From NCBI RefSeq assembly GCF_029227855.1, contig NZ_CP074356.1: a stretch of DNA of 64,000 nt; one strand, written 5' to 3'. Positions 10,390-39,646 of this stretch are shown here, in pieces. This stretch comes from Escherichia coli. GTDB lineage: Bacteria > Pseudomonadota > Gammaproteobacteria > Enterobacterales > Enterobacteriaceae. Below the pieces are notes generated by a model. The model was not told where the DNA came from. It saw nothing but the letters and a program-made list of their open reading frames with translations, and ran no database searches. The position numbers were made by a program, and so were the translations under genes. Within the stretch, counting starts at the first letter, position 1. Each line of letters starts with the position of its first letter.

Positions 10390-10487
10390 GCCGGATGCGG
10401 CGTGAACGCCTTATCCGGCCTACAAAAATCTTGCCAATTCAATATATTGCAGGACCACGTAGGCCTGATAAGCGTAGCGCATCAGGC
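10390..10487. repeat. REP/BIME elements (two REP palindromes) between fepA and entD
   Basis: gccggatgcggcgtgaacgccttatccggcctac and gtaggcctgataagcgtagcgcatcaggc are typical E. coli REP sequences. Confidence 0.8.
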
Positions 10488-11164: not shown

Positions 11165-11635
11165 TTCGCCCGCAGCCATTACTGACCGCGGGCGAAAGTG
11201 TAAAGCAGGTGCCTTACCATCCTGACCTGACAACCGGATATGCGGGGATTGCTCCCCGCACAACGGCTACTTCTTCGGTTCGTAAGCGAGAACAGCCTTA
11301 AACTCAATATTACGTTCCTTCACCGTAAACTCACACAGCGAGTCGCGGACCAGAAGCGTAAATCCCAGCACCGTTAAACACAGCACTATGACTGCCACAA
11401 GGGCATATTTCGTCAGCATGTTTATATTGCCTCCATGCGAAGAAGGGACTACCATCCGAGTTGTTCAGGTTTGGGTAGGTAGCCCCAGGGTTGATAGAAA
11501 TATCGTCCTGGGGCTTCATCTTTCCAGACCTCAGAGTTAACCTGAAACCGGAAAGCTTCAGGCACCCGCCGTTATCTTACCCTTCCTCAGCAAAATAGCT
11601 GTTTATTTATACAGTGAATCCTGTTTCGGACTTCT
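11165..11635. repeat. Tandem repeat unit 1 carrying a hok/sok-type type I toxin-antitoxin locus
   Basis: About 470 bp that realigns with 11670-12137 at roughly 95% identity by eye; contains hok copy 1. Confidence 0.85.
11267..11419 (-). CDS. hokE: Hok-family small membrane toxin (HokE-like), copy 1
   Basis: 50-aa product [50 protein letters not shown]; an overlapping mok-frame ORF is present (11331..11519). Confidence 0.85.
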
Positions 11636-11669
11636 GTTGGCAAAACTGATCATTGCCCTTAAAACGACA

Positions 11670-12137
11670 TCGCCCGCAGCCATTGCTGACCGCGGGCGAA
11701 AGTGTAAAGCAGGTGCCTTACCACCCTGACCTGACAACCGGATATGCGGGGATTACTCCCCGCACAACGGCTACTTCTTCGGTTCGTAAGCGAGAACAGC
11801 CTTAAACTCAATATTACGTTCCTTCACCGTAAACTCACACAGCGAGTCTCCGACCAGAAGCGTAAATCCCAGTACCGTCAAACACAGCACTATGACTGCC
11901 ACAAGGGCATATTTCGTCAGCATGTTTATATTGCCTCCATGCGAAGAAGGGACTACCATCCAAATTGTCTGGTTTGGAGTGGCAGCCCCAGGGTTGATAG
12001 AAATATCTCCTGGGGCTTCATCTTTCCAGACCTCAGAGTAAACCTGAAACCGGAAAGCTTCAGGCACCCGCCGTTATCTTACCCTTCCTCAGCAAAATGG
12101 CTGTTTATTTATACAGTGAGTCCTGTTTCGGACTTCT
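11670..12137. repeat. Tandem repeat unit 2 carrying a second hok/sok-type locus
   Basis: Direct repeat of 11165-11635 with scattered substitutions. Confidence 0.85.
11771..11923 (-). CDS. Hok-family small membrane toxin, copy 2
   Basis: 50-aa product identical to copy 1 except G for R at the LLV(G/R)DSL position. Confidence 0.8.
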
Positions 12138-12354
12138 CACTCCTAATTTGATCAACTGAAGCTGAACCCGTTTTTTTCTGCATGCCTCAATCGTCAAAAT
12201 TCTTCGCCACCAGCCAGCTCTGCCATAACTTGTCACATTGCAAAAGTAGCCAAATTGCTTCAGTCACCATCACCAAAAAAAAGAAACATTCCAGAACTTC
12301 CGCATCTCGCCCAGCCGCTCCGACTTCTATACTGAATAGAAAACGCCAACATAA

Positions 12355-15035: not shown

Positions 15036-16331
<1,296 letters not shown>

Positions 16332-16342
16332 TTAATAAATAT

Positions 16343-16367
16343 CCTCCGGCATAGCCGGAGGTTTTTC
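16343..16367 (+). terminator. Rho-independent terminator after ybdG (or subterminal hairpin of IS200)
   Basis: cctccggc-ata-gccggagg stem-loop followed by TTTTT. Confidence 0.6.
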
Positions 16368-16442
16368 AAATGCGCCTATAAGGCTCTCTTACCAGCCGCG
16401 CCCTAACAGGCGCACACGATCTGACATTTGCATCCAACTTCG

Positions 16443-16901
16443 TTACTTACGGCCCGTAAACGGGCTGCCCGGATAGGGAATCGATAACTGCTCTCCCATT
16501 TTATCCTCTTCAAGCTGGTGCTTTATGTAATCCTGTATCTTCGCCGTGTTCTTACCCACTGTATCGACGTAGTACCCTCTGCACCAGAACTCCCTGTTCC
16601 TGTATTTGAATTTCAAATCACCAAACTGCTCGTAAAGCATCAGACTGCTTTTCCCTTTCAGATATCCCATAAACCCGGATACGCTCATTTTGGGCGGGAT
16701 CTCCACAAGCATATGGATATGATCTGCACAGCATTCAGCTTCCAGAATCCGTACGCTTTTCCACTCACACAGCTTTCTCAAAATACTGCCTATTGCTCTA
16801 CGCTTCTCTCTGTAGAACACCTGTCTTCGGTATTTTGGCGCAAAAACTATGTGATATTTACAGTTCCATCGGGTGTGCGCTAAGCTCTTTTCGTTCCCCA
16901 T
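16443..16901 (-). CDS. tnpA: IS200 transposase TnpA (HUH Y1 transposase)
   Basis: Product MGNEKSLAHTRWNCKYHIVFAPKYRRQVFY...HIHMLVEIPPKMSVS...; HxH motif and catalytic Tyr context. Confidence 0.9.
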   Translation of the reverse strand: MGNEKSLAHTRWNCKYHIVFAPKYRRQVFYREKRRAIGSILRKLCEWKSVRILEAECCADHIHMLVEIPPKMSVSGFMGYLKGKSSLMLYEQFGDLKFKYRNREFWCRGYYVDTVGKNTAKIQDYIKHQLEEDKMGEQLSIPYPGSPFTGRK

Positions 16902-17043
16902 TGGGACCCCCTTTTGATTTCTTGTTTGACACTTGCAGTTGCCAGACCGCAAAGTGTTTTAACAAATCAAAAGGGGTTTTAATAACTGGCTCAAAGCTGA
17001 AAGCTTTCCGGAACCCCCAGCCTAGCTGGGGGTTTTCTGTGCA

Positions 17044-17078
17044 CAAAAAAACCGCTCTCATCGAATGGATGAGAGCGG
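17044..17078 (-). terminator. Rho-independent terminator of pheP
   Basis: ccgctctcatc-gaat-ggatgagagcgg hairpin, followed on the minus strand by TTTTTTT. Confidence 0.7.
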
Positions 17079-17109
17079 ACATCGTTTTGTCGGATGTAGC
17101 GTGAATGCC

Positions 17110-18486
17110 TTATTTCCGACGCAGCGTTTTAAATGCCACAAACAGGAATACAATCCACACCGGCAGCAGGATCGCTGACAAGCGCATATCATCCATCGTG
17201 CACATCAGCAGCAAAATCATGCCGAGGAAGGCAATACAAAGATAGTTGCCGAACGGATAAAGCAGCGCCTTAAACTGTGTTTCACGTCCCTGACGTCGCA
17301 TCGCCGCGCGAAAACGCAGATGCGCCAGGCAGATCATAATCCAGTTCAACAGCAGCGTTGCTACCACCAGCGCCATCAGCAGACCAAACGCTTTTTGCGG
17401 CAGCAGATAGTTGATTAACACCACCAGCGAAGTGATCGCTCCGGAAAGCATCAGCGAGTTAATCGGCACGCCGCGACGGCTGACGCGAGTCAAAAACTTC
17501 GGCGCATTACCCTGCACAGAAAGGCCAAACAGCATGCGGCTGTTAGAGTAAACCCCGCTGTTATACACCGACAACGATGCCACCAGAATGACGAAGTTCA
17601 GCGCAGAAGCCACTACGTTGCTGTCGAGATTATGGAAAATCATCACAAACGGGCTACTGTTAGATTTCACTTCCACCCACGGATAGAGTGCCAGTAAAAC
17701 CACCAGTGAACCGATGTAAAACAGCAGGATGCGATACACCACCTGATTCACTGCTTTAGGGATGCTTTTTTCCGGATCGCGCGCTTCAGCGGCAGTAATC
17801 CCAATCAGTTCCAGACCGCCGAAGGAGAACATAATCACCGCCAGCGATAAAATCAGCCCATTCCAGCCGGTGGCAAAGAAACCACCGTAGCGCCAGAGGT
17901 TGTCGATACTGGCTTTCTCGCCGCCGTGACCAGAAAACAGCAGCCACAGGCCAAAGCCGATCATGCCGATGATCGCCAGCACTTTAATCAGCGCAAACCA
18001 GAACTCGGTTTCGCCATATAAGCGCACGTTCACCAGGTTAACAGCGTTGATGATAATAAAGAAGGCGGCAGCCCAGATCCAGGTAGGAACATCCGGGAAC
18101 CAGTACTGCATATAAATGCCCGCAGCCGTTAGCTCTGCCATCCCCACCAGCACGAACATCACCCAGTAGTTCCAGCCAGAGAGGAAGCCCGCAAACGGTC
18201 CCCAGTATTTATAGGCAAAGTGGGCAAATGAACCGGATACCGGCTCTTCGACCACCATCTCGCCGAGCTGGCGCATAATCAGGAAAGCGATGATCCCGGC
18301 GACGCCGTAGCCCAGCAATACAGCCGGACCCGCCATCTGAATCGCCGGGCCAATGCCAAGAAACAGACCAGTACCAATTGCGCCACCCAGCGCAATCAGT
18401 TGAATATGACGGTTATGTAATCCGCGATGAAGCGTCGGCTCTTGATTCGACGCAGTATCTTCCGATACGGTTGACGCGTTTTTCAC
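17110..18486 (-). CDS. pheP: Phenylalanine-specific permease PheP (APC family)
   Basis: 458-aa product MKNASTVSEDTASNQEPTLHRGLHNRHIQLIALGGAIGTGLF... Confidence 0.95.
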   Translation of the reverse strand: MKNASTVSEDTASNQEPTLHRGLHNRHIQLIALGGAIGTGLFLGIGPAIQMAGPAVLLGYGVAGIIAFLIMRQLGEMVVEEPVSGSFAHFAYKYWGPFAGFLSGWNYWVMFVLVGMAELTAAGIYMQYWFPDVPTWIWAAAFFIIINAVNLVNVRLYGETEFWFALIKVLAIIGMIGFGLWLLFSGHGGEKASIDNLWRYGGFFATGWNGLILSLAVIMFSFGGLELIGITAAEARDPEKSIPKAVNQVVYRILLFYIGSLVVLLALYPWVEVKSNSSPFVMIFHNLDSNVVASALNFVILVASLSVYNSGVYSNSRMLFGLSVQGNAPKFLTRVSRRGVPINSLMLSGAITSLVVLINYLLPQKAFGLLMALVVATLLLNWIMICLAHLRFRAAMRRQGRETQFKALLYPFGNYLCIAFLGMILLLMCTMDDMRLSAILLPVWIVFLFVAFKTLRRK

Positions 18487-27734: not shown

Positions 27735-29636
27735 ATGTCAACCGGATTACGTTTCACACTGGAAGTGGACGGCCTGCCGCCGGATGCTTTTGCGGTGGTT
27801 TCCTTTCATCTGAACCAGTCACTCTCTTCGCTCTTTTCCCTCGATCTCTCCCTGGTCAGCCAGCAGTTTCTCTCCCTTGAATTTGCGCAGGTGCTGGACA
27901 AAATGGCCTACCTGACGATATGGCAGGGCGATGAAGTACAGCGCCGGGTGAAAGGCGTGGTGACCTGGTTTGAACTCGGGGAGAACGACAAAAACCAGAT
28001 GCTGTACAGCATGAAGGTGCACCCGCCGCTGTGGCGTGCCGGTCTGCGCCAGAACTTCCGTATCTTCCAGAACGAGGACATCAAAAGCATCCTCGGCACG
28101 ATGTTGCAGGAAAACGGGGTGACCGAATGGAGTCCGCTGTTCAGCGAGCCGCATCCTTCCCGTGAGTTTTGTGTCCAGTACGGTGAGACTGATTACGATT
28201 TCCTGTGCCGGATGGCGGCGGAGGAAGGCATCTTCTTTTATGAGGAGCATGCTTACAAAAGTACCGACCAGAGCCTGGTGCTGTGCGACACAGTCCGCCA
28301 TCTGCCCGAATCTTTTGAAATCCCATGGAACCCGAACACCCGTACCGAGGTGAGCACCCTCTGCATCAGCCAGTTCCGCTACAGCGCACAAATCCGCCCT
28401 TCTTCCGTGGTGACCAAAGACTACACCTTTAAACGCCCCGGCTGGGCCGGACGTTTTGAACAGGAAGGCCAGCACCAGGACTACCAGCGCACGCAGTATG
28501 AAGTGTATGACTACCCCGGACGTTTCAAGGGTGCCCACGGGCAGAACTTTGCCCGCTGGCAGATGGACGGCTGGCGAAACAATGCAGAAACCGCGCGGGG
28601 AATGAGTCGCTCGCCGGAGATATGGCCGGGACGACGAATTGTGCTGACGGGGCATCCGCAGGCGAACCTGAACCGGGAATGGCAGGTGGTGGCAAGTGAA
28701 CTGCACGGCGAACAGCCACAGGCGGTGCCAGGACGGCAGGGAGCGGGGACGGCGCTGGAGAACCATTTTGCGGTGATCCCGGCAGACAGAACATGGCGAC
28801 CACAGCCGTTGCTGAAACCGCTGGTCGACGGCCCGCAGAGCGCTGTCGTGACAGGACCGGCAGGCGAGGAAATCTTCTGCGACGAACATGGTCGCGTGCG
28901 GGTGAAGTTCAACTGGGACCGCTATAACCCGTCAAACCAGGACAGTTCGTGCTGGATCCGTGTGGCACAGGCGTGGGCAGGCACCGGTTTTGGCCACCTG
29001 GCGATACCGCGTGTGGGTCAGGAGGTGATTGTAGACTTCCTCAACGGCGATCCGGACCAGCCGATCATTATGGGGCGCACCTACCACCAGGAAAACCGCA
29101 CCCCCGGCAGCCTGCCGGGAACAAAGACGCAGATGACCATCCGCTCCAAAACGTACATGGGCAGCGGATTTAATGAGCTGAAGTTTGATGATGCGACAGG
29201 GAGAGAACAGGTCTACATCCACGCGCAGAAGAACATGGATACCGAAGTGCTCAACGACCGTACCACCACCGTAAAACACGATCACCACGAAACCGTAAAA
29301 AATGACCAGACGGTCACGATCCAGGAAGGTAACCGCCTTCTTACGGTGGAAAAAGGCCACAAGATCACCGGAGTACTGAAAGGGTCTTTATCTGAGGATG
29401 TCTTTCAGGACAGAGGCACGATTGCCGGTTCGGTGCATGTTGACGCTGTAAACAATGGTGGCGAAGGCGACGGTATACAGGCTTATACGGCGATTAAGGA
29501 AATTTTGCTGGCCGTGGAGGAAAGCAAAATTGCGCTGACGCCGGATGGCATTCAGCTACAGGTCGGGGAATCGACGGTAATCAGGCTGTCGAAGGATGGC
29601 ATCACCATCGTGGGCGGTTCTGTTTTCATCAACTGA
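27735..29636 (+). CDS. vgrG: Type VI secretion spike protein VgrG (Rhs-element Vgr protein)
   Basis: 633-aa ORF MSTGLRFTLEVDGLPPDAFAVVSFHLNQSLSSLFSLDLSL...; gp27/gp5-like organisation, immediately upstream of Eag/PAAR-Rhs genes. Confidence 0.88.
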   Translation: MSTGLRFTLEVDGLPPDAFAVVSFHLNQSLSSLFSLDLSLVSQQFLSLEFAQVLDKMAYLTIWQGDEVQRRVKGVVTWFELGENDKNQMLYSMKVHPPLWRAGLRQNFRIFQNEDIKSILGTMLQENGVTEWSPLFSEPHPSREFCVQYGETDYDFLCRMAAEEGIFFYEEHAYKSTDQSLVLCDTVRHLPESFEIPWNPNTRTEVSTLCISQFRYSAQIRPSSVVTKDYTFKRPGWAGRFEQEGQHQDYQRTQYEVYDYPGRFKGAHGQNFARWQMDGWRNNAETARGMSRSPEIWPGRRIVLTGHPQANLNREWQVVASELHGEQPQAVPGRQGAGTALENHFAVIPADRTWRPQPLLKPLVDGPQSAVVTGPAGEEIFCDEHGRVRVKFNWDRYNPSNQDSSCWIRVAQAWAGTGFGHLAIPRVGQEVIVDFLNGDPDQPIIMGRTYHQENRTPGSLPGTKTQMTIRSKTYMGSGFNELKFDDATGREQVYIHAQKNMDTEVLNDRTTTVKHDHHETVKNDQTVTIQEGNRLLTVEKGHKITGVLKGSLSEDVFQDRGTIAGSVHVDAVNNGGEGDGIQAYTAIKEILLAVEESKIALTPDGIQLQVGESTVIRLSKDGITIVGGSVFIN

Positions 29637-29663
29637 TTCACTCAGATTATCAGGGAGTATTTT

Positions 29664-30125
29664 ATGCAGTTCACTTTTAATGAAGGCCACATTCAACTGC
29701 CGTCTCAATGGCAGGATCAGTCAATGCAGGTCCTGGTGTCCACAGATAACAGTGGCATCAACCTGGTCATTACCCGCGAAGCCGTTCCACAGGGAACCCT
29801 GACACCAGAGCTGTACCAGGAAACGCTGGCGCTGTACCAGGGCAAACTTGATGGGTACACCGAACATGCCTGCCGGGAAATCACTCTGGCAGAGGCCCCG
29901 GCCTGGCTGCTGGATTATTCCTGGAACGGTCCGGAAGATGAGGGGAATCAGGGGCGGATTAGCCAGATAGCCGTATTCCAGCGGCGTGGAGATACGCTGC
30001 TGACCTTCACTTTCAGCACCTCCTTATCCCTGAAGAACAGTCAAAAGACGATGCTGCTGGAGGTGATAAAGAGCTTCACCCCGTTGCCACCGGAGAATGA
30101 CATCCAAAAGGACCAGCCGCGCTGA
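29664..30125 (+). CDS. DUF1795/Eag-family T6SS effector chaperone (EagR-like)
   Basis: 153-aa ORF placed between vgrG and a prePAAR-Rhs gene, the canonical position of Eag chaperones; assignment from context and overall similarity, no HMM run. Confidence 0.7.
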   Translation: MQFTFNEGHIQLPSQWQDQSMQVLVSTDNSGINLVITREAVPQGTLTPELYQETLALYQGKLDGYTEHACREITLAEAPAWLLDYSWNGPEDEGNQGRISQIAVFQRRGDTLLTFTFSTSLSLKNSQKTMLLEVIKSFTPLPPENDIQKDQPR

Positions 30126-30144
30126 CATAAACGAGGGATAACAC

Positions 30145-33100
30145 ATGAGTGAAGGACCAGGCGGGCCACAGGGAGCGACCGCAGGCGGTACGCTGGCAAT
30201 GCGAATGCTGTCACAGCAGGCGATGGTCGCCAGCCAGATGAAACGGGCAGCCAACGACAAAGCCATTGCACAGATGCTGGCATCAAAAAAGTCCGGCCCC
30301 CCCGCCGCCAGGCTGGGCGATGAAATTCAGCACAAGAGTTTTTTGGGGGCGCTGGCAGGGGCCGTGCTGGGGGCGATAGTGACCATCGCAGAAGGTTGCC
30401 TGATTATGGCCGCCTGTGCCACCGGCCCTTATGCGCTGGTTCTGGTGCCTGCGCTGATGTATGCCAGCTATAAGGCGAGTGATTATGTGGAGGAGAAACA
30501 GAACCAGCTTGAATCATGGATAAACAGCTTTTGTGACACGGACGGCGCCATCAATACCGGTTCTGAAAATGTAAACATTAACGGAAAGCCCGCTGCCAGG
30601 GCCGCCGTCACCCTTCCCCCTCCTCCCCCACCTGGAGCAATACCTGAAATCCCACAGGGGGAACCCTCATGGGGTGATATTGCCACTGACCTGCTTGAAT
30701 CGGCAGCGGAAAAAGCAGTACCACTGGCGAAGGCCTGGGGGAACGCTGTTATCACCCTGACGGACAGCAATGCCGGTTTTATGGATCGCGTCAGCGCCGG
30801 CGCATCGCTTCTGTTTCCCGCCGGTCCGGTATTAATGGAGTTTGCCACCATGGTGGGCGGGCGTGGCGAAATCAAAAAAGATGTGGATTTCCCGGAAGCC
30901 GGTGAGGACACGGCGCTCTGCGACAAGGAGAACAAACCACCGAGGATAGCCCAGGGCAGCAGCAACGTCTTTATCAACAATCAGCCCGCCGCGCGCAAGG
31001 GCGACAAACTGGAGTGCAGCGCGGCAATCGTGGAAGGTTCGCCGGACGTCTTTATTGGCGGTGAACAGGTGACCTATCTGGATATCCAGCCAGAGTTCCC
31101 GCCGTGGCAGAGAATGATCCTGGGGGGAATAACGATAGCCAGCTATCTTCTGCCGCCAGCGGGACTGCTGGGAAAACTGAAGAATCTGGCGAGACTCGGC
31201 AAACTGGGGAACCTGCTGGGGAAAAGCGGGAAGCTGCTGGGGGCAAAGCTCGGCGCGTTGCTGGGAAAAACAGATAAGTCGTTAAAAAGTATTGCCAATA
31301 AAGTCATCAGATGGGTAACAGATCCTGTCGATCCGGTAACCGGCGCGTACTGCGACGAACGTACCGACTTTACGCTGGGCCAGACCCTCCCCCTCTCCTT
31401 CACCCGTTTCCACAGTTCTGTACTGCCGCTGCATGGCCTGACCGGCGTGGGCTGGAGCGACTCCTGGAGCGAATACGCCTGGGTGCGTGAACAGGGAAAC
31501 CGGGTGGATATCATCAGCCAGGGAGCCACGCTGAACTTCGCCTTCGACGGTGACAGTGATACGGCGGTTAACCCGTATCACGCCCAGTACATTCTGCGCC
31601 GCCGCGATGATTATCTGGAGCTGTTCGACAGGGATGCACTGAGCAGCCGCTTCTTTTATGACGCCTTTCCGGGAATGCGTCTGCGCCACCCGGTGACTGA
31701 CGATACCAGCGATGACCGCCTGGCACACAGCCCCAATGACCGGATGTACATGCTGGGCGGGATGAGCGACACCGCCAGCAACCGCATCACGTTTGAGCGC
31801 GACAGCCAGTACCGGATCACAGGTGTCAGTCACACCGACGGGATCCGGCTTAAACTGACGTACCACGCCAGCGGCTACCTGAAAGCCATTCACCGCACGG
31901 ATAACGGCATACAGACGCTGGCGACCTACGAACAGGATGCGCGGGGGCGGCTGACAGAAGCGGATGCGCGGCTGGACTACCACCTGTTTTATGAGTACGA
32001 CGCTGCGGACCGGATCATCCGCTGGTCCGATAACGACCAGACGTGGAGCCGTTTCACCTACGATGAACAGGGCCGGTGCGTGAATGTCACCGGGGCGGAG
32101 GGCTATTACAACGCCACGCTGGACTATGGTGACGGCTGCACCACCGTGACGGACGGCAAGGGCATTCACCGTTATTACTATGATCCTGACGGCAATATTC
32201 TGCGGGAAGCAGCGCCGGACGGCAGCACCACCACGTATGAATGGGATGAATTCCATCACCTGCTGGCCCGTCACTCCCCTGCCGGGCGGGTGGAGAAATT
32301 TGAATACAACGCCGCACACGGTCAGTTAAGCCGTTACACGGCGGCAGACGGCGCGGAGTGGCAGTACCGCTATGATGAGCGCGGCCTGCTCAGCAACATC
32401 ACCGACCCTGCCGGGCAGACGTGGACACAGCAGTGTGATGAACGCGGCCTGCCGGTAAGTCTGGTGTCGCCACAGGGCGAAGAGACCCGGCTGGCATACA
32501 CCGCTCAGGGGCTGCTGTCGGGAATATTCCGCCAGGATGAACGGCGTCTGGGCATAGAGTACGACCACCACAACCGGCCGGAAACACTCACCGACGTGAT
32601 GGGCCGTGAACACCACACCGAATACAGCGGTCACGACCTGCCGGTGAAGATGCGCGGCCCCGGCGGTCAGTCAGTGCGGTTGCAGTGGCAGCAGCACCAT
32701 AAACTGAGTGGCCTTGAGCGCACTGGCACCGGCGCGGAAGGGTTCAGCTATGACCGCCACGGCAACCTGCTGGCCTGGACGGACGGCAATGGTGTTGTCT
32801 GGACAATGGAGTACGGCCCGTTCGATTTGCCGGTGGCGCGAACGGACGGTGAAGGCCACCGCTGGCAGTACCGCTATGATAAAGACACGCTGCAACTGAC
32901 AGAAGTCATTAACCCGCAGGGTGAGTCATATCTTTATGTTCTGGATAACTGCGGCCGGGTGACGGAAGAGCATGACTGGGGCGGCGTGGTCTGGCGTTAC
33001 CGCTATGACGCCGATGGCCTGTGTACCGCCAGGGTCAACGGCCTGGAGGAAACCATCCTCTACAGCCGGGACGACGCAGGCCGCCTGGCAGAAGTCATCA

Positions 33101-34974
33101 CGCCGGAAGGCAAAACGCAGTATGCGTATGACAAATCCGGCAGGCTGACGGGTATCTTCAGCCCGGACGGCACATCACAGCGCACCGGCTATGACGAACG
33201 CGGGCGGGTGAATGTCACCACTCAGGGCCGACGGGCCATTGAATACCACTACCCCGATGAACACACCGTCATCCGCTGTATCCTGCCACCGGAAGATGAA
33301 CGCGACAGACACCCCGGTGAATCCCTGCTGAAAACCACGTACCGCTACAACGCAGCCGGAGAACTGGCAGAGGTCATCCTGCCGGAGGATGAGACGCTGA
33401 CGTTCAGCCGTGATGAGGCAGGACGTGAAGTGCTCCGGCACAGTAACCGGGGTTTTGCCTGTGAGCAGGGCTGGAATGCAGCCGGTCAGCTTACCAGCCA
33501 GCGCGCCGGACTTTTCCCGGCAGAAGCCACATGGGGCGGGCTGCTCCCCTCACTGGTACGGGAGTACCGTTACGACAGCGCGGGCAATGTGTCGGCTGTC
33601 ACCAGCCGGGAAGATTACGGACGGGAAACTCGCCGGGAGTACCGGCTGGACCGGAACGGCCAGGTCACGGCGGTGACAGCCTCAGGCACCGGGCTGGGCT
33701 ATGGCGAAGGCGATGAGTCCTATGGCTATGACAGTTGTGGCTACCTGAAGGCGCAGTCTGCGGGCAGGCACCGGATAAGTGAAGAGACTGAGCGGTATGC
33801 CGGAGGCCACCGGCTGAAACAGGCCGGAAACACGCAGTATGACTATGACGCCGCAGGCCGGATGGTCAGCCGCACCAGACACCGTAACGGCTATCGCCCG
33901 GAAACAGAGCGGTTCCGGTGGGACAGCCGGGACCAGCTGACCGGGTATTGCAGCGCACAGGGTGAACAGTGGGAATACCGCCACGACGCCAGCGGCAGAC
34001 GGACGGAAAAACGCTGCGACCGGAAGAAAATCCGCTTCACGTACCTGTGGGACGGCGACAGTATTGCGGAAATCCGGGAATACCGCGATGATAAACTGTA
34101 CAGCGTAAGGCACCTGGTGTTTAACGGCTTTGAGCTGATAAGCCAGCAGTTTAGCCGGGTACGGCAGCCGCACCCGTCCGTGGCCCCGCAGTGGGTGACG
34201 CGGACGAATCATGCGGTGAGCGATCTGACGGGCCGTCCGCTGATGCTCTTTAACAGTGAAGGTAAAACCGTCTGGCGACCGGGACAGACCAGCCTGTGGG
34301 GGCTGGCACTCAGCCTGCCCGCGGACACCGGCTACCCGGACCCGCGCGGGGAACTGGACGCGGAAGCCGACCCCGGCCTGCTGTATGCAGGACAGTGGCA
34401 GGATGCGGAATCCGGGCTGTGCTATAACCGGTTCCGGTATTACGAGCCGGAAACAGGGATGTACCTGGTGAGTGATCCGCTGGGGTTGCTGGGGGGTGAG
34501 CAGACTTACCGGTATGTGCCGAATCCGTGTGGGTATGTTGATCCTTTGGGATTAGCAACATGTCCCATAATCAGACAACGGGTGCTGGCTAACCTTGAAG
34601 CCAGTCGGGCAGCAAGGGCTGCATCTAATTTTGGTAAGAAAAATATCTATGATTTTATCAAGGCAACTCAATCTGCTATCCCTGGCACCTCTATCCCAAA
34701 ATCTTTTGAGATTATAACTGCTAATGGTACTTTCTGGGTACACCCAAATGCTACAAAACATATGGCTGAATATTTGACTCGGAACGGTCTCTCACATTCA
34801 ACTTCTGTAGAGAGCCAAATAATGTTAACAAGTTTTCACGAAGCTGTAAGTTTGGCTAGTGCTCAAGGTATAAAGTATGAAGAAATGATGAATGTTGGCG
34901 GCTGGGAACTAGTATTTAGTCAAGCTAAATCTGACTCGGCTTTATCAGTTATTAAACATGCTCTTTATAAATGA
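30145..34974 (+). CDS. prePAAR/PAAR-domain Rhs polymorphic toxin (T6SS effector) with variable C-terminal toxin domain
   Basis: 1609 aa; prePAAR motif AARLGDEIQH near the N-terminus with hydrophobic helices; PAAR-like segment (GDKLECSAAIVEGSPDVFIGGE); many YD/RHS repeats; PxxxxDPxGL core-end motif (NPCGYVDPLGL) followed by about 150 aa of divergent C-terminus. Confidence 0.9.
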   Translation: MSEGPGGPQGATAGGTLAMRMLSQQAMVASQMKRAANDKAIAQMLASKKSGPPAARLGDEIQHKSFLGALAGAVLGAIVTIAEGCLIMAACATGPYALVLVPALMYASYKASDYVEEKQNQLESWINSFCDTDGAINTGSENVNINGKPAARAAVTLPPPPPPGAIPEIPQGEPSWGDIATDLLESAAEKAVPLAKAWGNAVITLTDSNAGFMDRVSAGASLLFPAGPVLMEFATMVGGRGEIKKDVDFPEAGEDTALCDKENKPPRIAQGSSNVFINNQPAARKGDKLECSAAIVEGSPDVFIGGEQVTYLDIQPEFPPWQRMILGGITIASYLLPPAGLLGKLKNLARLGKLGNLLGKSGKLLGAKLGALLGKTDKSLKSIANKVIRWVTDPVDPVTGAYCDERTDFTLGQTLPLSFTRFHSSVLPLHGLTGVGWSDSWSEYAWVREQGNRVDIISQGATLNFAFDGDSDTAVNPYHAQYILRRRDDYLELFDRDALSSRFFYDAFPGMRLRHPVTDDTSDDRLAHSPNDRMYMLGGMSDTASNRITFERDSQYRITGVSHTDGIRLKLTYHASGYLKAIHRTDNGIQTLATYEQDARGRLTEADARLDYHLFYEYDAADRIIRWSDNDQTWSRFTYDEQGRCVNVTGAEGYYNATLDYGDGCTTVTDGKGIHRYYYDPDGNILREAAPDGSTTTYEWDEFHHLLARHSPAGRVEKFEYNAAHGQLSRYTAADGAEWQYRYDERGLLSNITDPAGQTWTQQCDERGLPVSLVSPQGEETRLAYTAQGLLSGIFRQDERRLGIEYDHHNRPETLTDVMGREHHTEYSGHDLPVKMRGPGGQSVRLQWQQHHKLSGLERTGTGAEGFSYDRHGNLLAWTDGNGVVWTMEYGPFDLPVARTDGEGHRWQYRYDKDTLQLTEVINPQGESYLYVLDNCGRVTEEHDWGGVVWRYRYDADGLCTARVNGLEETILYSRDDAGRLAEVITPEGKTQYAYDKSGRLTGIFSPDGTSQRTGYDERGRVNVTTQGRRAIEYHYPDEHTVIRCILPPEDERDRHPGESLLKTTYRYNAAGELAEVILPEDETLTFSRDEAGREVLRHSNRGFACEQGWNAAGQLTSQRAGLFPAEATWGGLLPSLVREYRYDSAGNVSAVTSREDYGRETRREYRLDRNGQVTAVTASGTGLGYGEGDESYGYDSCGYLKAQSAGRHRISEETERYAGGHRLKQAGNTQYDYDAAGRMVSRTRHRNGYRPETERFRWDSRDQLTGYCSAQGEQWEYRHDASGRRTEKRCDRKKIRFTYLWDGDSIAEIREYRDDKLYSVRHLVFNGFELISQQFSRVRQPHPSVAPQWVTRTNHAVSDLTGRPLMLFNSEGKTVWRPGQTSLWGLALSLPADTGYPDPRGELDAEADPGLLYAGQWQDAESGLCYNRFRYYEPETGMYLVSDPLGLLGGEQTYRYVPNPCGYVDPLGLATCPIIRQRVLANLEASRAARAASNFGKKNIYDFIKATQSAIPGTSIPKSFEIITANGTFWVHPNATKHMAEYLTRNGLSHSTSVESQIMLTSFHEAVSLASAQGIKYEEMMNVGGWELVFSQAKSDSALSVIKHALYK

Positions 34975-35504
34975 CGATTATGCTTACATTAGAAAATGAA
35001 ACAAACTACAAAGATGTTGTTGTTAATATAGATGAATTTGTACCTTTTGATATAACTTTTGGAAAGGGGAGCGAACAGTGTTTGTACTGGAGAGGCGGCA
35101 ATGGTAAAAGTTCTTTGGTTGAAGTTGGGTTAAATATGTACAGCGGAGAAGTAAGTAACATCACACTAGCAAATATCGATTCAGGTGAAATTAACATTAC
35201 AGATGAGATGTTAGCCAACAACCTTCCTGAAATACAAGGGTCTGTTATATTTCAGACAAGCGAGTGGCTTAATAAAGACATTTCCGAATACTCAAACAGA
35301 TTTATTGATGATTTTGATTGCAATATCAAGTTAATAATTGGTAGTAATTACATTAAATTATTATTTAAAAAAGCAACAAATCCCATTTGTTATATCATTA
35401 ATAGGAATATAAGATTTGGTTTTTCTTTGAGTAGGGAACTTTCGACATTGGAAATATTAGACCTCAATCAAGAAAAATTAGATATTCTAAAGTTATTTAA
35501 ATAG
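34971..35504 (+). CDS. Putative cognate immunity protein for the Rhs C-terminal toxin
   Basis: 177-aa ORF whose ATG overlaps the rhs stop (ATGA); markedly AT-rich; position typical of rhsI genes. Confidence 0.7.
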   Translation: MTIMLTLENETNYKDVVVNIDEFVPFDITFGKGSEQCLYWRGGNGKSSLVEVGLNMYSGEVSNITLANIDSGEINITDEMLANNLPEIQGSVIFQTSEWLNKDISEYSNRFIDDFDCNIKLIIGSNYIKLLFKKATNPICYIINRNIRFGFSLSRELSTLEILDLNQEKLDILKLFK

Positions 35505-35983
35505 TTTTAGTGTTTGAAACTTACCGAGAGATGATAGCTATGAATGAATACAAAAACATCCATCTTGGAGGAAACAATGGAATGTTAATCCATTAAAAAA
35601 CATACTTCAATATCTTTAGTGAAGAAAGAGTTGTATGAAAGAAATATATCTTATGTGAGCGACATGATGCATGCTAATTATATTATTGGCCGGAAATTTT
35701 ATGATGATAGCAAAAAGGAGGGGTTATTTCTGTAAGAATGGATATACCCGCAGGGTTTGAACCAGACATTTATTTGTTGAAGTCTAAGATCCAAATGGAA
35801 GCATTTATATCCCTCAGATATTATGCGTTGACGGGTTGATAAAGATACTTTTAGAGGGTTAATAAATGGAGAACGTATAATAAATCTCTTAAACAAACTA
35901 TAACCTGTACTAATGAAAAAAATGGGAATAGATAAGTTAATAGCCTATTCTAAAAATGGTAAAGTGGTTTTACTTCCAAAATA

Positions 35984-36427
35984 ATGGAGTTTAGTATGAA
36001 AATCGAAGCTAATTCCCTTACTCATCCCTATGACTACAACGCCTCACTGAACAATTATTTACATTATTTTGAGAATTTCTCTCGTAATGACTGGAATAAA
36101 GATTCATGTGGAGGATATTTTACTTTTAGAGATGATGACAGAGAGTGTGTTTTGTTTTTTGTGAATTATGGTGATAATTTTTCATTGCGCTATGATTGTA
36201 CACAAAGTTCTGATGGAATAGTGTCATGCTGGTATAGTAACCATGAAGATGATAAAATGAATATCATCGTCGATGCTGATACAGAACAATTTATCCCTTT
36301 AGGTTCTTGCTTACCTCCTGATATTACTTTATCAGTAATAAAAGATTTTTTCAAAAATCCTTTAGAGAAATCAAAAAAAGTAAAATGGATGAATGCAGAT
36401 GACATTGACTGGTCATCTGTGTATTAA
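35984..36427 (+). CDS. Hypothetical protein, possible orphan immunity gene
   Basis: 147-aa ORF in AT-rich DNA downstream of the toxin/immunity pair; no recognisable motif. Confidence 0.4.
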   Translation: MEFSMKIEANSLTHPYDYNASLNNYLHYFENFSRNDWNKDSCGGYFTFRDDDRECVLFFVNYGDNFSLRYDCTQSSDGIVSCWYSNHEDDKMNIIVDADTEQFIPLGSCLPPDITLSVIKDFFKNPLEKSKKVKWMNADDIDWSSVY

Positions 36428-37318
36428 AGTTGGATTGGATAATTATCTGTTTCAAAAATCATTAAATTTAGAACCTATCTGTTCAACAGAGCTGCCTTGA
36501 ACAGCAGGTTCTTTTATGATGTCCAGGAGCGAATATGCCTGTGATGTCTGGCACTCAGCATCTGACTGACCTGGACTACTGATCCTACTCACACAGGGAG
36601 CTAGACCTGGAAGCAACCTACTGTAAGCAGTGCAGTAGCAGCCCACCTCACATCAGTCCTTGCAAGGTGTGGGCCTTTGTGATCTTGCTCTGTATTGCTG
36701 AGATCCTCAGGAAGGACTCGAAATTTAATCAGGAAGGCCGTTGCTAAAAATCAAAAAATAAATTCAAGAGCAATTTCTAAAACTTTTGAATCTACTGTAT
36801 CGGATGAGGTTTTCACTCCTTTCCAAAAGGTGAGTTTTCAAGCATTCAAGTTTCTGTTATGACCAAAACTTCACCATTTAACACTAATCCGAGTATTATG
36901 TTACCATGAAGAAAAAAGATATTAGATTTGCAATATCCATTAACTCCAACTCAAGTAAGATAGAATTAATGGAAAAATTAAAAACATAATCCCAGGGCTT
37001 ATTGAAATAACTCCCAGTGCATTAAGAGAAGAAAAAACATGGTAGTTATTGAAGATAATGATCTTTATGACTCTATAAAAGCAGAGGGAGTTGATGGATG
37101 GATGTATTATAAATTCATATTATCCATATTCCCATTAAAGGGAGTAGACACAACATTAGAATATCAACGGAAATTATCTTTTCTTTTCTTAAAGAAATTA
37201 AAAGATGCGGGTCTGTTAGGTGAACTTATATGCGAGGATGATTTTCATGACTGATGACCTCTACATATATCCTCAGTTCGTGGCTGGTATTACATGATCT
37301 GACAGGGAAAGATCGTAG

Positions 37319-37613
37319 CGAAATCAAAAAAGACGTGGATTTCCCGGAAGCCGGTGAAGACACGGCGCTCTGCGACAAGGAGACTAAACCGCCGAGGATA
37401 GCCCAGGGCAGCAGCAACGTTTTTATCAACAATCAGCCTGCCGCACGCCAGGGAGACAAACTGGAGTGCAGTGCGGCGATCGTGGAAGGTTCGCCGGACG
37501 TCTTTATTGGGGGTGAGCAGGTCACCTATCTGGATATCCAGCCGGAGTTCCCGCCGTGGCAGAGAATGATCCTGGGGGGAATAACGATAGCCAGCTATCT
37601 TCTGCCGCCAGCG
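37319..37613 (+). pseudogene. Duplicated fragment of the Rhs PAAR-domain region
   Basis: 295 bp nearly identical to 30867-31161 of the full-length rhs gene; encodes EIKKDVDFPEAGEDTALCDK...ITIASYLLPPA inside ORF 37254..37631; lacks the N-terminus and core. Confidence 0.85.
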
Positions 37614-37750
37614 CAGGGAAAGATCACGTAACGCTGCTTTTTTGTACTAAATAATTCGCACTAAATGTTCAATAATTGAGATATTCCTTATTACCTAAAT
37701 ACAGTTCCACCAAGATTACCTAAACCCAAATGAGGTAAAAGATAGTGGGT

Positions 37751-38112
37751 ATGAATAAAAATGAAATCCATTTCCCTATAGGATATGGTTGGTTGAATGA
37801 AAAAAAATTATTGGCACCAGTGAATTTAGCCAATTAGAACCATGGTTTTATCTAGATGAGAACAGGTGTTTTTTTGCGAATAAAAAATGGCCAAATGTCA
37901 TAGGTGAACAATTATTCGCTTTTGCTAAACGTCAAGATAATGATGAATTGGCTTGTTTCAAAATTAATGAATCTGGAGTCTGTGAGGGTGTTTATTTAAT
38001 TAATGGGTGGACTCCTAACGGGTTTGATATTATACAATTTTACCCTGATTTTTGGGAATGGGTACATTTGGTTATACAAGATGTCTCGGAGTGGATTGAT
38101 AATAAAGGATAA
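37751..38112 (+). pseudogene. Frameshifted small gene (immunity-protein-like) with an A8 tract at the frame switch
   Basis: ATG at 37751 reads 27 codons to a stop; a shifted frame from about 37813 continues for 99 codons to TAA at 38110-38112; the shift coincides with gaaaaaaaatt at 37798-37808. Confidence 0.45.
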
Positions 38113-38141
38113 TTTGAAACAAAAGTAAAAAACCGCCTTCA

Positions 38142-38840
38142 TTGAAGGTAACGTGGAGTGGTGGGCGGAGCAGCCTGCCCGCAGACACAGACTACCCGGA
38201 CCCGCGCGGGGAGCGGGACGCGGAAGCCGACCCCGGCCTGCTGTATGCAGGACAGTGGCAGGATGCGGAATCCGGACTGTGCTATAACCGGTTCCGGTAT
38301 TACGAGCCGGAAACCGGGATGTACCTGGTGAGTGATCCCCTGGGGTTGCTGGGGGGTGAGCAGACTTACCGGTATGTGCCTAATCCTAGTGGGTATGTTG
38401 ATCCTCTGGGATTAGCAACGTGTCCTATACTCAGACAGTGGGCGCTGACTAACCTTGAAGCCAGTCGGGCAGCAAGGGCTGCATCTAATTTTGGTAAGCC
38501 TCTGGTCCAGCGAAATAAAACGATTGGCGATAAAGTAAGGGATATGATTGCCAAAGAGAGGGGAACCACTCTAATTGAACAAAATTATAGAGTGACAGGA
38601 GGATTAAAGCGTATTGACGTTGTTGATGGAGTAACGGGTATAGAATCTAAAGTCGATCGAACAGGGTTAACAACCCGAGTACGGCAAGAGGTAGCGCGGG
38701 ATATTAAGATTTTGAGAAGTGAGCAACTTGATCAAATTGAATGGGTGTTTACAAGAAGTTCAACTACAGGGAAGATTGGGCCAACTAAACCACTTGAAGA
38801 TCTTTTAAATAAACATGGTATACCGATTATTTATCGATAA
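38142..38840 (+). CDS. Orphan Rhs C-terminal fragment: core end (DPxGL) plus alternative C-terminal toxin domain, candidate PD-(D/E)xK nuclease
   Basis: 38171-38498 nearly identical to 34311-34638 of the full rhs; the C-terminal domain diverges after ...AASNFGK; contains RIDVVDG...GIESK; the ORF begins at TTG and has no PAAR or core of its own. Confidence 0.7.
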   Translation: MKVTWSGGRSSLPADTDYPDPRGERDAEADPGLLYAGQWQDAESGLCYNRFRYYEPETGMYLVSDPLGLLGGEQTYRYVPNPSGYVDPLGLATCPILRQWALTNLEASRAARAASNFGKPLVQRNKTIGDKVRDMIAKERGTTLIEQNYRVTGGLKRIDVVDGVTGIESKVDRTGLTTRVRQEVARDIKILRSEQLDQIEWVFTRSSTTGKIGPTKPLEDLLNKHGIPIIYR

Positions 38841-38851
38841 GGAGTGATAGT

Positions 38852-39409
38852 GTGAAACTCAAACCGATTGGTGACTTTTTAAACAAAAATGGGTTTATAA
38901 AAAATGGTAACAATGATTTTTATAAAGTTCATGATAAGTTTGTAAATTGTATAAATTTTCAAAAAAAGAGTACAGGTGATATTTTTTTTATAAACACAGG
39001 TGTTCATCCTGTGTTCGAAAATTTTTGCAATGAACCACCGAAAAAAGAAATAGATTGTTACATCCGTAACCGTGTGTGTGATGGACTAAGTATATCTTTG
39101 CTGCATTCTTTTGAAGGTAGTGAGTTTGTTATCAGTGAGATAAAAAACAAAGCGTTTTGTTTTTTTGAATACTTTGATTCATTGAATAAAATATTCGATG
39201 CTATTCGTGTTGTAGATATTGAAGAGAGAAATATTTGCGATGAGCTAAGTGGTGTAAGCAGCGTAAGATTAGCTTTGATGTGTATGAACTACCAGTATGA
39301 GAAAAAAAAATTTAGCCTTGTTTCTGATTTTGCGAACTATGGTCTTGCTATATCTAGAGGCCCGGTACCGAAAAAAGCATTTAAGGATATGATAAAAATA
39401 ACAGAGTGA
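38852..39409 (+). CDS. Putative immunity protein for the orphan Rhs C-terminal toxin
   Basis: 185-aa AT-rich ORF with GTG start 11 bp after the orphan toxin stop and GGAG upstream. Confidence 0.6.
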   Translation: MKLKPIGDFLNKNGFIKNGNNDFYKVHDKFVNCINFQKKSTGDIFFINTGVHPVFENFCNEPPKKEIDCYIRNRVCDGLSISLLHSFEGSEFVISEIKNKAFCFFEYFDSLNKIFDAIRVVDIEERNICDELSGVSSVRLALMCMNYQYEKKKFSLVSDFANYGLAISRGPVPKKAFKDMIKITE

Positions 39410-39434
39410 TACCTAATCCGGTGTAATACTTGCT

Positions 39435-39646
39435 GCCTGTGTACCGCGAAGATTAACGGCCGGGAGGAAACTATTCTCTACAACCGGGACGCCACAGGCC
39501 GCCTGGCAGAAGTCATCACGCCGGAAGGCAAAACGCAGTATGCGTATGACAAATCCGGCAGGCTGACGGGTATCTTCAGCCCGGACGACACATCACAGCG
39601 CACCGGCTATGAAGAACGCGGGCGGGTGAATGTCACCACTCAGGGC
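39435..39646 (+). pseudogene. Internal Rhs core fragment
   Basis: About 210 bp at roughly 90% identity to 33018-33228 of the full-length rhs; truncated at both ends, abutting the ISAs1 left end. Confidence 0.8.

What the first reader, a model, noticed from the sequence alone, without database searches (positions are those of the whole stretch)
16335..17037. IS200 inserted between the ybdG and pheP terminators
A 152-aa Y1 (HUH) transposase gene with the upstream GC hairpin characteristic of IS200 lies in the convergent ybdG/pheP intergenic region, flanked by the apparent terminators of both genes. I do not recall IS200 in K-12, so this marks the strain as carrying an active or recently active IS200. 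Its right end is ambiguous because the hairpin at 16343-16367 could be the ybdG terminator or the IS subterminal hairpin.
Basis: partly seen in the sequence, partly recalled or inferred. Interest (0 to 1): 0.4.

Follow-up and report, generated by a model that had tools for sequence, protein, structure and literature searches.

The report
Ordinary IS200C insertion beside pheP terminator
This is a complete, ordinary copy of the known insertion sequence IS200C, sitting directly after the transcription terminator of pheP; K-12 lacks it, and it matters only as a strain marker and as an example of IS200's habit of landing right behind terminators.

Summary
Window 16334-17044 (711 bp, ±2 nt) is an intact IS200C on the minus strand. 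It carries a 152-aa Y1/HUH transposase, the IS200 left-end hairpin, the stem-loop that hides the ribosome-binding site, and a right-end hairpin.

Empty-site genomes, including K-12 MG1655 and K-12-derived EV36, read TAATT-AAAAAAA-CCGCTCTC. The insert is therefore exact, with no target duplication.

Two details need correcting:
- **Right boundary:** it is 17044-17046, not 17037.
- **Hairpins:** both GC hairpins (16343-16361 and 17012-17034) belong to the IS. ybdG and pheP share one bidirectional terminator at 17045-17078, and the IS sits directly against its T-tract.

The window is 100% identical to E. coli JNEC-KY178, whose chromosome shows 24 IS200C matches. IS200C occurs in 2063 of 5426 complete E. 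coli genomes. This particular site is occupied in 28-29 of them, with different junction registers and IS alleles, which suggests recurrent insertion.

In about 130 IS200-type insertion sites from E. coli, Yersinia, Vibrio and distant phyla, the left end almost always abuts a terminator-like hairpin plus a T-rich tail. Verdict: a known element and an ordinary finding. The terminator targeting is the only mildly interesting lead.

The parts
16334..17044 (-). Complete IS200C element, 711 bp. A 2-nt 'AA' junction ambiguity means 16335-17045 or 16336-17046 are equally possible. No target duplication and no terminal inverted repeats.
   Evidence: Empty-site alignment with strain 4 and EV36. MG1655 spacer. 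Identical 711-bp limits in 15 other copies. No inverted repeat links the two termini.
16343..16361 (-). Right-end (RE) subterminal hairpin CCTCCGGC-TAT-GCCGGAGG. In tnpA sense it is preceded by GAAAAA and followed by ATATTTATT, which is the IS terminus. On the + strand it is followed by TTTTT, so it looks like a terminator for ybdG 12 nt after the ybdG stop codon.
   Evidence: Absent from empty sites. It is a direct repeat of the LE hairpin at 78% identity (D1).
16443..16901 (-). tnpA, a 152-aa Y1 HUH transposase, coordinates including the stop codon. HUH motif = H61-I62-H63. Catalytic Tyr inferred as Y110 in RGYYV.
   Evidence: Pfam PF01797 E 3.8e-38. PDB matches to Y1 transposases 2ec2, 2f4f, IS608 2a6m/2vhg and ISDra2 2xm3, with DHIH and R/S-Y-F/Y aligned. 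95% identical to IS200F TnpA.
16908..16976 (-). [quoted passage not shown] The region is also complementary to the antisense RNA art200 described in the literature.
   Evidence: RNA fold -41.4 kcal/mol, z -3.4. Inverted repeat I1. Same position as the nt 69-138 element in PMC4513863.
16911..17034 (-). Match to Rfam RF01405 STnc490 (IS200 left-end structured RNA).
   Evidence: 144.6 bits, gathering score 56, model positions 1-124 of 124.
17012..17034 (-). Left-end (LE) hairpin AACCCCCAGC-TAG-GCTGGGGGTT (IS nt 11-33). This is the bidirectional terminator that shields tnpA from outside transcription. The AAAA just 5' of its G/C foot (window 17033-17036) is a candidate guide sequence.
   Evidence: Position matches nt 12-34 in PMC4513863. 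AAAA is conserved across species whose first 8 LE nucleotides differ.
17045..17078 (-). Insertion target, not part of the IS: the native bidirectional pheP/ybdG terminator. It is the hairpin CCGCTCTCATC-N5-GATGAGAGCGG (17052-17078) plus a T7 tract on the pheP-sense strand (17045-17051), which the IS left end abuts.
   Evidence: Terminator scan. DNA fold z -5.3. Present unchanged in empty sites.

Best explanation
The feature is a complete, apparently functional copy of the known insertion sequence IS200C (IS200/IS605 family, IS200 group). It is inserted without target duplication between the ybdG stop codon and the shared ybdG/pheP terminator, and tnpA runs in the same direction as pheP.

Shown here:
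- The 711-bp insert and its limits.
- The intact HUH/Tyr transposase.
- AAAA-hairpin modules at both ends, in direct orientation.
- The empty site in K-12 and in most other E. coli.

Inferred from the IS608/ISDra2 paradigm:
- TnpA excises the tnpA-sense strand as a single-stranded circle.
- It pastes the circle into single-stranded DNA immediately 3' of a T-rich pentanucleotide (consensus TTNTT, here the T7 tract of the pheP terminator).
- The target is read by base pairing with the AAAA guide that lies 5' of the left-end hairpin.

The terminator hairpin next to the T-tract appears to be part of what makes a site usable. About 90% of some 130 surveyed sites have one.

Expression of tnpA is kept very low by three elements: the pheP terminator, the IS's own left-end terminator, and the 5'UTR stem-loop (plus antisense art200 according to the literature). 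The effect on the host is probably neutral. pheP keeps its terminator, and ybdG now runs into the IS right-end hairpin followed by TTTTT.
For: - **Identity:**
- **Limits and absence of duplication:**
- **Anatomy matching published IS200:** terminator at nt 12-34, stem-loop at nt 69-138, SD AAGGGGGU.
- **Polymorphism and copy number:** 2063 of 5426 genomes carry a copy covering at least 80%. This site is occupied in 28-29. The identical chromosome has 24 matches. A 100%-identical copy sits downstream of yggN in another strain.
- **Target pattern in E. coli:** 15 of 15 distinct sites have a hairpin plus T-run abutting LE, against 2 of 62 intergenic T>=5 runs in the window.
- **Target pattern across species:** 96 of 116 sites pass a strict hairpin criterion and 121 of 130 a looser one. 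T is near-invariant at -5, -2 and -1.
- **Family rule:** a guide 5' of the hairpin pairs with the target (PMC5934647; PMC5027513).
- **Replication strand:** pheP is on the + strand at 0.60 Mb in MG1655. From established knowledge of the K-12 map, that puts the IS sense strand on the lagging-strand template, as the family prefers.
Against:
- 'Recently active' rests on population patterns. Gene conversion between copies, or import of the region by recombination, could mimic it.
- The guide/target pairing (AAAA with TTNTT) is by analogy and has not been shown for IS200.
- The hairpin preference could partly reflect survival of harmless insertions rather than targeting.
- An A-run 5' of the target hairpin, which would make the target a full right-end mimic, is not enriched.
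- From my unverified memory of the K-12 map, several other sites (pta, bamD, potE) are not co-directional with replication. The lagging-strand rule was not tested.
Confidence: 0.95

Rival explanations
1. The hairpin at 16343-16361 is the native ybdG terminator and the IS ends inside it. This is the first reader's alternative, with the IS sitting between two gene terminators.
For: On the + strand the hairpin is followed by TTTTT and scores as terminator-like 12 nt after the ybdG stop codon.
Against: The hairpin is absent from every empty site, where ybdG's stop TAA-TT runs straight into the A7 tract of the single shared terminator. It is present, at the same distance from tnpA, in IS200C copies at 14 other loci and in Y. 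pestis IS1541 copies.
Confidence: 0.01
2. The copy is an old, immobile relic inherited vertically, or brought in with flanking DNA by homologous recombination. On this view it says nothing about current IS200 activity in the strain.
For: IS200 transposes at around 1e-8 or less in the laboratory and is regarded as mostly dormant. The window's 5.5-kb haplotype is unique in the collection, with the next best at 98.9%, so no very close IS-free relative is available to date the event.
Against: Only 28-29 of 5426 genomes have the site occupied. Those genomes show at least three junction registers within the A7 run and several IS alleles, on backgrounds 97.7-98.8% identical to the window. Empty-site genomes are just as close (98.9%). 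The element is intact and 100% identical to a copy at another locus. The matching chromosome has 24 matches against a median of 1.
Confidence: 0.15
3. The gene is a domesticated REP-associated tyrosine transposase (RAYT/TnpA_REP) rather than an IS transposase.
For: It has the same Pfam domain (Y1_Tnp), and there are hairpins on both sides.
Against: It is 95% identical to IS200F TnpA. It is flanked by IS200 LE and RE rather than inverted REPs. It is present in multiple copies at variable loci, and the whole 711-bp unit is present or absent as a block.
Confidence: 0.01
4. The position next to a terminator is not due to targeting. IS200 needs only a T-rich pentanucleotide, and selection removes insertions everywhere except just past terminators.
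For: Family members such as IS608 need only a tetranucleotide in ssDNA. Insertions behind terminators are likely to be the least harmful.
Against: The junction falls at the end of the T-tract with single-nucleotide precision, 5-8 nt from the hairpin foot, in about 90% of 130 sites across phyla. 60 of 62 intergenic T>=5 runs in the window lack such a hairpin. In Y. pestis the same rule places copies directly behind the right-end hairpin of another copy.
Confidence: 0.25

Closest known systems
IS200C of Escherichia coli (ISfinder isoform of IS200; RefSeq tnpA product WP_000526135.1)
   Same: Identical transposase protein. The 1201-bp locus, and 25 kb around it, are 100% identical to the annotated locus in E. 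coli JNEC-KY178. It has the same 711-bp unit as copies at 14 other loci.
   Different: Nothing detectable. It is this element.
IS200 / IS200F of Salmonella enterica (707 bp; Lam & Roth; Beuzon & Casadesus; Ellis & Haniford PMC4513863)
   Same: TnpA is 95% identical. The left-end terminator hairpin is at nt ~12-34, the SD-sequestering stem-loop at nt ~69-138 and the SD is AAGGGGGU. It matches the STnc490 model, has a single ORF, no inverted repeats and no duplication, and inserts at a run of T.
   Different: 711 bp against the published 707 bp, and 8 amino-acid differences.
IS1541 of Yersinia pestis
   Same: The exact 23-nt left-end hairpin and the same right-end hairpin followed by ATATTTATT. 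The proteins share a 90% cluster. Left ends abut terminator-like hairpins with T tails in dozens of copies.
   Different: The first LE nucleotides are GTGCCCAG rather than GTGCACAG, and copy number is much higher.
IS608 (H. pylori) and ISDra2 (D. radiodurans), the mechanistic paradigms of the IS200/IS605 family
   Same: Y1 HUH transposase fold family (E 4e-19 and 2e-16 to their solved chains). Subterminal hairpins in direct orientation, with a 4-nt element 5' of each hairpin foot. Insertion 3' of a short specific sequence without duplication.
   Different: No tnpB. The hairpins are perfect rather than imperfect palindromes. The target is T-rich (TTNTT) rather than TTAC or TTGAT, and in practice it sits next to a terminator hairpin. 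The peel-and-paste chemistry has not been shown for IS200 itself.

Membership tests
IS200 (IS200 group of the IS200/IS605 family) | Single ORF of ~150 aa encoding a Y1 HUH transposase (Pfam Y1_Tnp), with no tnpB | tested here: met
   152 aa, PF01797 E 3.8e-38 covering profile positions 2-121 of 121. It is the only substantial ORF within the 711 bp apart from overlapping antisense ORFs.
IS200 (IS200 group of the IS200/IS605 family) | HUH motif and catalytic tyrosine intact | tested here: met
   DHIHML and RGYYV align with DHIHLF and RSYFV of the solved Y1 transposase 2ec2. There is no frameshift or internal stop.
IS200 (IS200 group of the IS200/IS605 family) | Length ~700-710 bp, no terminal inverted repeats, no target-site duplication | tested here: met
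   A 711-bp insert, with the A7 tract of the empty site conserved as 0+7 or 1+6 around the IS. No inverted repeat joins the termini.
IS200 (IS200 group of the IS200/IS605 family) | Left end with a terminator hairpin (nt ~12-34) and a stem-loop sequestering the SD (nt ~69-138) | tested here: met
   Hairpin at IS nt 11-33 and stem-loop at nt 69-137, compared with PMC4513863. Rfam STnc490 at 144.6 bits.
IS200 (IS200 group of the IS200/IS605 family) | High sequence identity to named IS200 isoforms | tested here: met
   Protein identical to RefSeq 'IS200C family transposase' WP_000526135.1 and 95% identical to IS200F TnpA. A direct alignment to the ISfinder reference DNA was not possible.
IS200/IS605 family mechanism (peel and paste) | Subterminal hairpins in the same orientation at both ends, each with a guide element 5' of the foot | tested here: met
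   The LE and RE hairpins are direct repeats (78% identity), each preceded by AAAA in tnpA sense. That these act as guides is inferred.
IS200/IS605 family mechanism (peel and paste) | Left end always inserted 3' of a specific tetra- or pentanucleotide | tested here: met
   Across 116 unique flanks, T occupies position -5 in 111, -2 in 114 and -1 in 103. TTTTT, TTATT and TTGTT are the commonest pentamers. All 15 E. coli sites conform.
IS200/IS605 family mechanism (peel and paste) | Single-stranded circular intermediate and TnpA-catalysed strand transfer into ssDNA | not testable with these tools
   This needs biochemistry or a genetic assay.
IS200/IS605 family mechanism (peel and paste) | Orientation bias toward the lagging-strand template | tested here: inconclusive
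   For this copy, pheP is on the + strand at 0.60 Mb in MG1655, which is consistent with the bias. The other sites were not mapped relative to oriC and dif.
RAYT / TnpA_REP (considered and rejected) | Single-copy gene flanked by inverted REP sequences and inherited vertically | tested here: not met
   It is multi-copy (up to 35 places per genome), at variable loci, and flanked by IS200 LE and RE in direct orientation.

The most novel reading that the evidence does not exclude
IS200-group elements may be dedicated 'terminator-seekers'. Their TnpA/left-end complex would select the single-stranded T-tract immediately 3' of an intrinsic-terminator hairpin (consensus hairpin-N0-3-TTNTT|LE). The hairpin would be part of the recognised target, possibly because hairpin plus T-rich tail mimics the element's own right end (hairpin + ATATTTATT). 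This would explain four things. It would account for the near-universal position behind co-oriented genes from E. coli to Bacillota and Desulfovibrionaceae. It would account for recurrent hits on the same terminator, as at ybdG-pheP, and for tandem copies in Y. pestis. It would also explain the element's harmlessness and low expression. A 2025-26 preprint reports the statistical excess of terminators upstream of IS200/IS605 elements, but I found no nucleotide-level target model or mechanism in the searchable literature.
Probability: 0.35. Interest if true: 0.5.

Novelty: already known. Interest (0 to 1): 0.2.

Why it matters
For this window, the finding serves mainly as a strain marker. It identifies the sequence as a non-K-12 E. 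coli, identical to JNEC-KY178, from a lineage with an unusually high IS200C load. It also corrects the local annotation: there is one shared terminator, and the two other hairpins belong to the IS.

More broadly, the survey prompted by this copy shows at nucleotide resolution that IS200-type elements sit directly on the T-tract of intrinsic terminators in many phyla. If that reflects targeting rather than selection, it would have three consequences:
- It would give IS200, whose target rules have rested on very few characterised empty sites, a defined target.
- It would explain why the element is so benign and so poorly expressed.
- It would offer a natural example of structure-plus-sequence target choice by an HUH transposase.

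Tried and rejected
- **Classic papers not held.** Beuzon & Casadesus 1997, Odaert 1998, He 2015 and Barabas 2008 are not in the library. I therefore could not check whether terminator targeting was described there. Two searches failed on term syntax.
- **Literature searches.** Searches for IS200/IS1541 with 'terminator' found only three relevant items: the internal left-end terminator, one report of a T3 target in an A/T-rich region (PMC1360685), and the 2025-26 preprint statistic.
- **Flank-SNP comparison.** The second half was out of register because junction offsets differ. I discarded it and used the BLAST identities instead.
- **Right-end mimic idea.** I tested whether target hairpins carry an A-run on their 5' side, like the IS right end. 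They are not enriched: only 44 of 121 have at least 3 A in the 4 nt 5' of the hairpin foot. A full right-end mimic with a cis guide is therefore not supported.
- **IS200 in MG1655.** I could not show with a tool that the whole MG1655 chromosome lacks IS200. What is shown is that its ybdG-pheP spacer is empty and that the K-12-derived EV36 chromosome has no IS200 match. Whole-genome absence rests on established knowledge (Lam & Roth 1983; Bisercic & Ochman 1993, from memory).
- **Promoter scan.** No sigma-70-like site was found in 16100-17300. This is consistent with the undefined, weak tnpA promoter reported in the literature.

Full report
**1. Observation**

The minus strand of the window between ybdG and pheP carries an ORF at 16443-16901. 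ybdG is on the + strand with its stop at 16329-16331. pheP is on the minus strand, and its CDS ends at 17110. From its ATG the ORF encodes 152 aa.

The protein matches Pfam Y1_Tnp (PF01797, 'Transposase IS200 like') over the whole profile (E 3.8e-38). It also matches the solved Y1 HUH transposases 2ec2, 2f4f, IS608 TnpA (2a6m, 2vhg) and ISDra2 TnpA (2xm3) at E 4e-23 to 1e-14. The HUH histidines (H61-I-H63) and the RGYY tyrosine motif are aligned.

Upstream of the ORF, in tnpA sense, lie two structures:
- A perfect 10-bp hairpin at 17012-17034.
- A long stem-loop at 16908-16976 that pairs with the Shine-Dalgarno sequence AAGGGGGU.

Rfam STnc490, the IS200 left-end RNA, matches 16911-17034 end to end at 144.6 bits against a gathering score of 56.

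**2. Identity**

The 1201 bp around the element, and the first 25 kb of the window, are 100% identical to E. coli JNEC-KY178 (NZ_AP045174.1). There the gene is annotated as tnpA, 'IS200/IS605-like element IS200C family transposase', WP_000526135.1.

The protein is 95% identical to Salmonella IS200F TnpA. It shares a 90% cluster with Salmonella, Yersinia pestis, Tatumella and Kosakonia proteins.

Positions within the element match the published IS200 map (PMC4513863):

| Feature | This copy (IS nt) | Published IS200 (nt) |
|---|---|---|
| Left-end terminator hairpin | 11-33 | 12-34 |
| SD-sequestering stem-loop | 69-137 | 69-138 |

**3. Ends**

Empty sites read ...GCAGTAATT-AAAAAAA-CCGCTCTCATCGAATGGATGAGAGCGG.... 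These are strain 4, the K-12-derived EV36, and MG1655, whose pheP-ybdG spacer is 80 bp.

The window reads ...GCAGTAATT[AATAAATATCC...CTGTGCAC]AAAAAAACCGCTCTC.... The insert is therefore 711 bp at 16334-17044. A 2-nt AA ambiguity allows limits up to 16336-17046. There is no target duplication.

The same 711-bp unit with the same terminal sequences occurs at 14 other chromosomal loci in other strains. Nothing links the two termini as inverted repeats. Instead, the two subterminal hairpins are direct repeats of each other (78% identity), and each is preceded by AAAA in tnpA sense.

- The hairpin at 16343-16361 is the IS right-end hairpin, not a ybdG terminator.

The only native terminator between the two genes is the bidirectional hairpin at 17052-17078 with its A7/T7 tract at 17045-17051.

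**4. Population context**

IS200C is common in E. coli. 2063 of 5426 complete genomes hold a copy covering at least 80% of the element. Places per genome have a median of 1 and a maximum of 35. JNEC-KY178 has 24 places. A copy 100% identical over 713 bp lies downstream of yggN in strain MRSN346647.

The ybdG-pheP site is occupied in only 28-29 genomes. Among these:
- The junction register within the A7 run differs. It is 0+7 in the window, 1+6 in strains 7/2, WP7 and SCU-102, and 2+6 in CE0007a and GPEC657. ECA64 has an extra AAT.
- The IS alleles differ by 1-7 substitutions from the window's copy.
- The flanking haplotypes are 97.7-98.8% identical to the window, while empty-site genomes reach 98.9%.

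This pattern fits several independent insertions into one terminator better than a single ancestral event. Homopolymer assembly errors and gene conversion cannot be excluded for individual cases.

K-12 has an empty site. The K-12-derived EV36 chromosome has no IS200 match at all. That MG1655 as a whole lacks IS200 rests on established knowledge.

**5. How it works**

Shown here is the anatomy. Inferred from the family paradigm (PMC5027513; PMC5934647) are the following steps:
- TnpA dimers bind the two subterminal hairpins on the tnpA-sense strand.
- Cleavage sites are read by pairing with a 4-nt guide 5' of each hairpin foot.
- The strand leaves as a single-stranded circle and is pasted 3' of a short specific target in single-stranded DNA.

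For IS200C the candidate guides are AAAA at both ends. The right end terminates in TTATT, and the left end is flanked by TTTTT.

I tested the target rule on independent copies. In 15 of 15 distinct E. coli sites the left end abuts the T-tract of a GC-rich hairpin. In the 14 sites with an annotated upstream gene (pheP, bamD, pta, yfeX, yggN, deoD, rplS, dsbA, csgA, lom, htpX, potE, a hypothetical gene and prophage ren), that gene is co-oriented with tnpA; at the remaining site, near ymgL, none is annotated. As a control, only 2 of 62 intergenic T>=5 runs in the 64-kb window follow such a hairpin. One of those is the pheP terminator itself and the other is the IS right end.

I then scanned species-representative genomes for the exact 23-nt left-end hairpin. 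It returned at least 120 loci from Yersinia pestis, Vibrio, Brenneria, Dickeya, Edwardsiella, Budvicia, Pluralibacter and Oxalobacter. Metagenome-assembled genomes (MAGs) of Mailhella/Desulfovibrio, Peptococcaceae and Bacillota also gave hits. In these loci:
- 96 of 116 unique flanks pass the strict hairpin-plus-T-tail test, and 121 of 130 pass a looser one.
- The junction usually lies 5-8 nt from the hairpin foot.
- T is nearly invariant at positions -5, -2 and -1.
- The AAAA next to the hairpin is conserved, while the first 8 nt of the left end vary between species.

The location of this copy is therefore not accidental, because the pheP terminator is a typical IS200 target. Whether the hairpin is recognised or only marks sites that tolerate insertion remains open. 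The single-nucleotide precision and the recurrence argue for targeting.

An A-run on the 5' side of the target hairpin is not enriched. The target is therefore not a complete mimic of the right end.

**6. Consequences for the neighbouring genes (inferred)**

- pheP keeps its own terminator.
- Any read-through then meets the IS left-end hairpin, a bidirectional terminator that stops about 85% of upstream transcripts according to PMC5435999.
- ybdG has lost direct contact with the shared terminator. It now runs, 12 nt after its stop codon, into the IS right-end hairpin followed by TTTTT, which scores as terminator-like.
- tnpA translation is blocked by the 5'UTR stem-loop and, according to the literature, by antisense art200 and Hfq.

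**7. Comparison and novelty**

This is IS200C, a known element that NCBI's pipeline annotates routinely, so the finding is ordinary. [quoted passage not shown] A T3 target in an A/T-rich region was described for one Salmonella copy, in a paper noting that few empty sites were known (PMC1360685).

I found no explicit nucleotide-level description of terminator T-tract targeting for IS200. However, the key older papers and the family review are not in the library, so I do not claim it as new.

**8. Verdict**

- The element is already known.
- Interest is low (0.2). The only lead worth following is the terminator-seeking behaviour.

Noticed in passing
window 17045-17078; loci L004-L019, L026-L145: In about 90% of some 130 independent insertion sites, in E. 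coli and in distant taxa, the IS200-type left end directly abuts an intrinsic-terminator-like hairpin plus a T-rich tail (flank consensus TTNTT). The junction usually lies 5-8 nt from the hairpin foot.
   Followed up: yes
window 16329-16336 and 17040-17052; L007, L008, L009, L020-L024: The ybdG-pheP terminator is occupied by IS200C in 28-29 genomes. These show at least three junction registers, several IS alleles and different flanking haplotypes. It looks like a recurrent insertion hot spot rather than one inherited event.
   Followed up: partly
L023 (NZ_CM149872.1, strain HCP4S3_I4) 645-1654: Here the IS200C next to ybdG is followed not by pheP but by lambdoid prophage genes ren and P, again behind a hairpin plus TTTTTATT. 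This is probably a rearrangement by recombination between two IS200C copies.
   Followed up: no
L091, L092, L094, L138 (Yersinia pestis NCTC5923): Some IS1541 copies have their left end directly behind the right-end hairpin plus ATATTTATT of another copy. These are head-to-tail tandems about 710 bp apart, and they show that the IS right end itself fits the target pattern.
   Followed up: no
L026-L054, L070-L086: The exact 23-nt IS200 left-end hairpin AACCCCCAGCTAGGCTGGGGGTT occurs in MAGs of Oxalobacter, Mailhella/Desulfovibrio, Peptococcaceae, Bacillota, Elusimicrobiaceae and Saccharibacteria, often at contig ends. This implies wide horizontal spread, or in some bins contamination.
   Followed up: no
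window 16911-17034 (minus strand): The Rfam STnc490 model aligns to the tnpA-sense strand (left-end hairpin, then 5'UTR stem-loop). The papers that named STnc490/art200 describe it as antisense to the tnpA 5'UTR. The model may therefore represent the sense 5'tnpA structure.
   Followed up: no
window 11267-12159: There are two tandem hokE/sok type I toxin-antitoxin units. Rfam sok hits lie at 11411-11567 and 11915-12069, and two hokE CDS are annotated. The ES036/CssrF sRNA lies at 10425-10466.
   Followed up: no
window 27735-40926: A Vgr-DcrB-Rhs (type VI secretion effector) cluster is followed by orphan Rhs and PAAR fragments and an ISAs1-family transposase. It lies between cusS and nfrB.
   Followed up: no
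hits H28, H29, H64-H67 (pO157-type plasmids, ~92 kb): An unannotated remnant of about 141 bp, 92% identical to the right-end side of IS200C (window 16334-16474), is carried on O157:H7 virulence plasmids. Truncated IS200C copies interrupted by IS1 occur on other plasmids.
   Followed up: no
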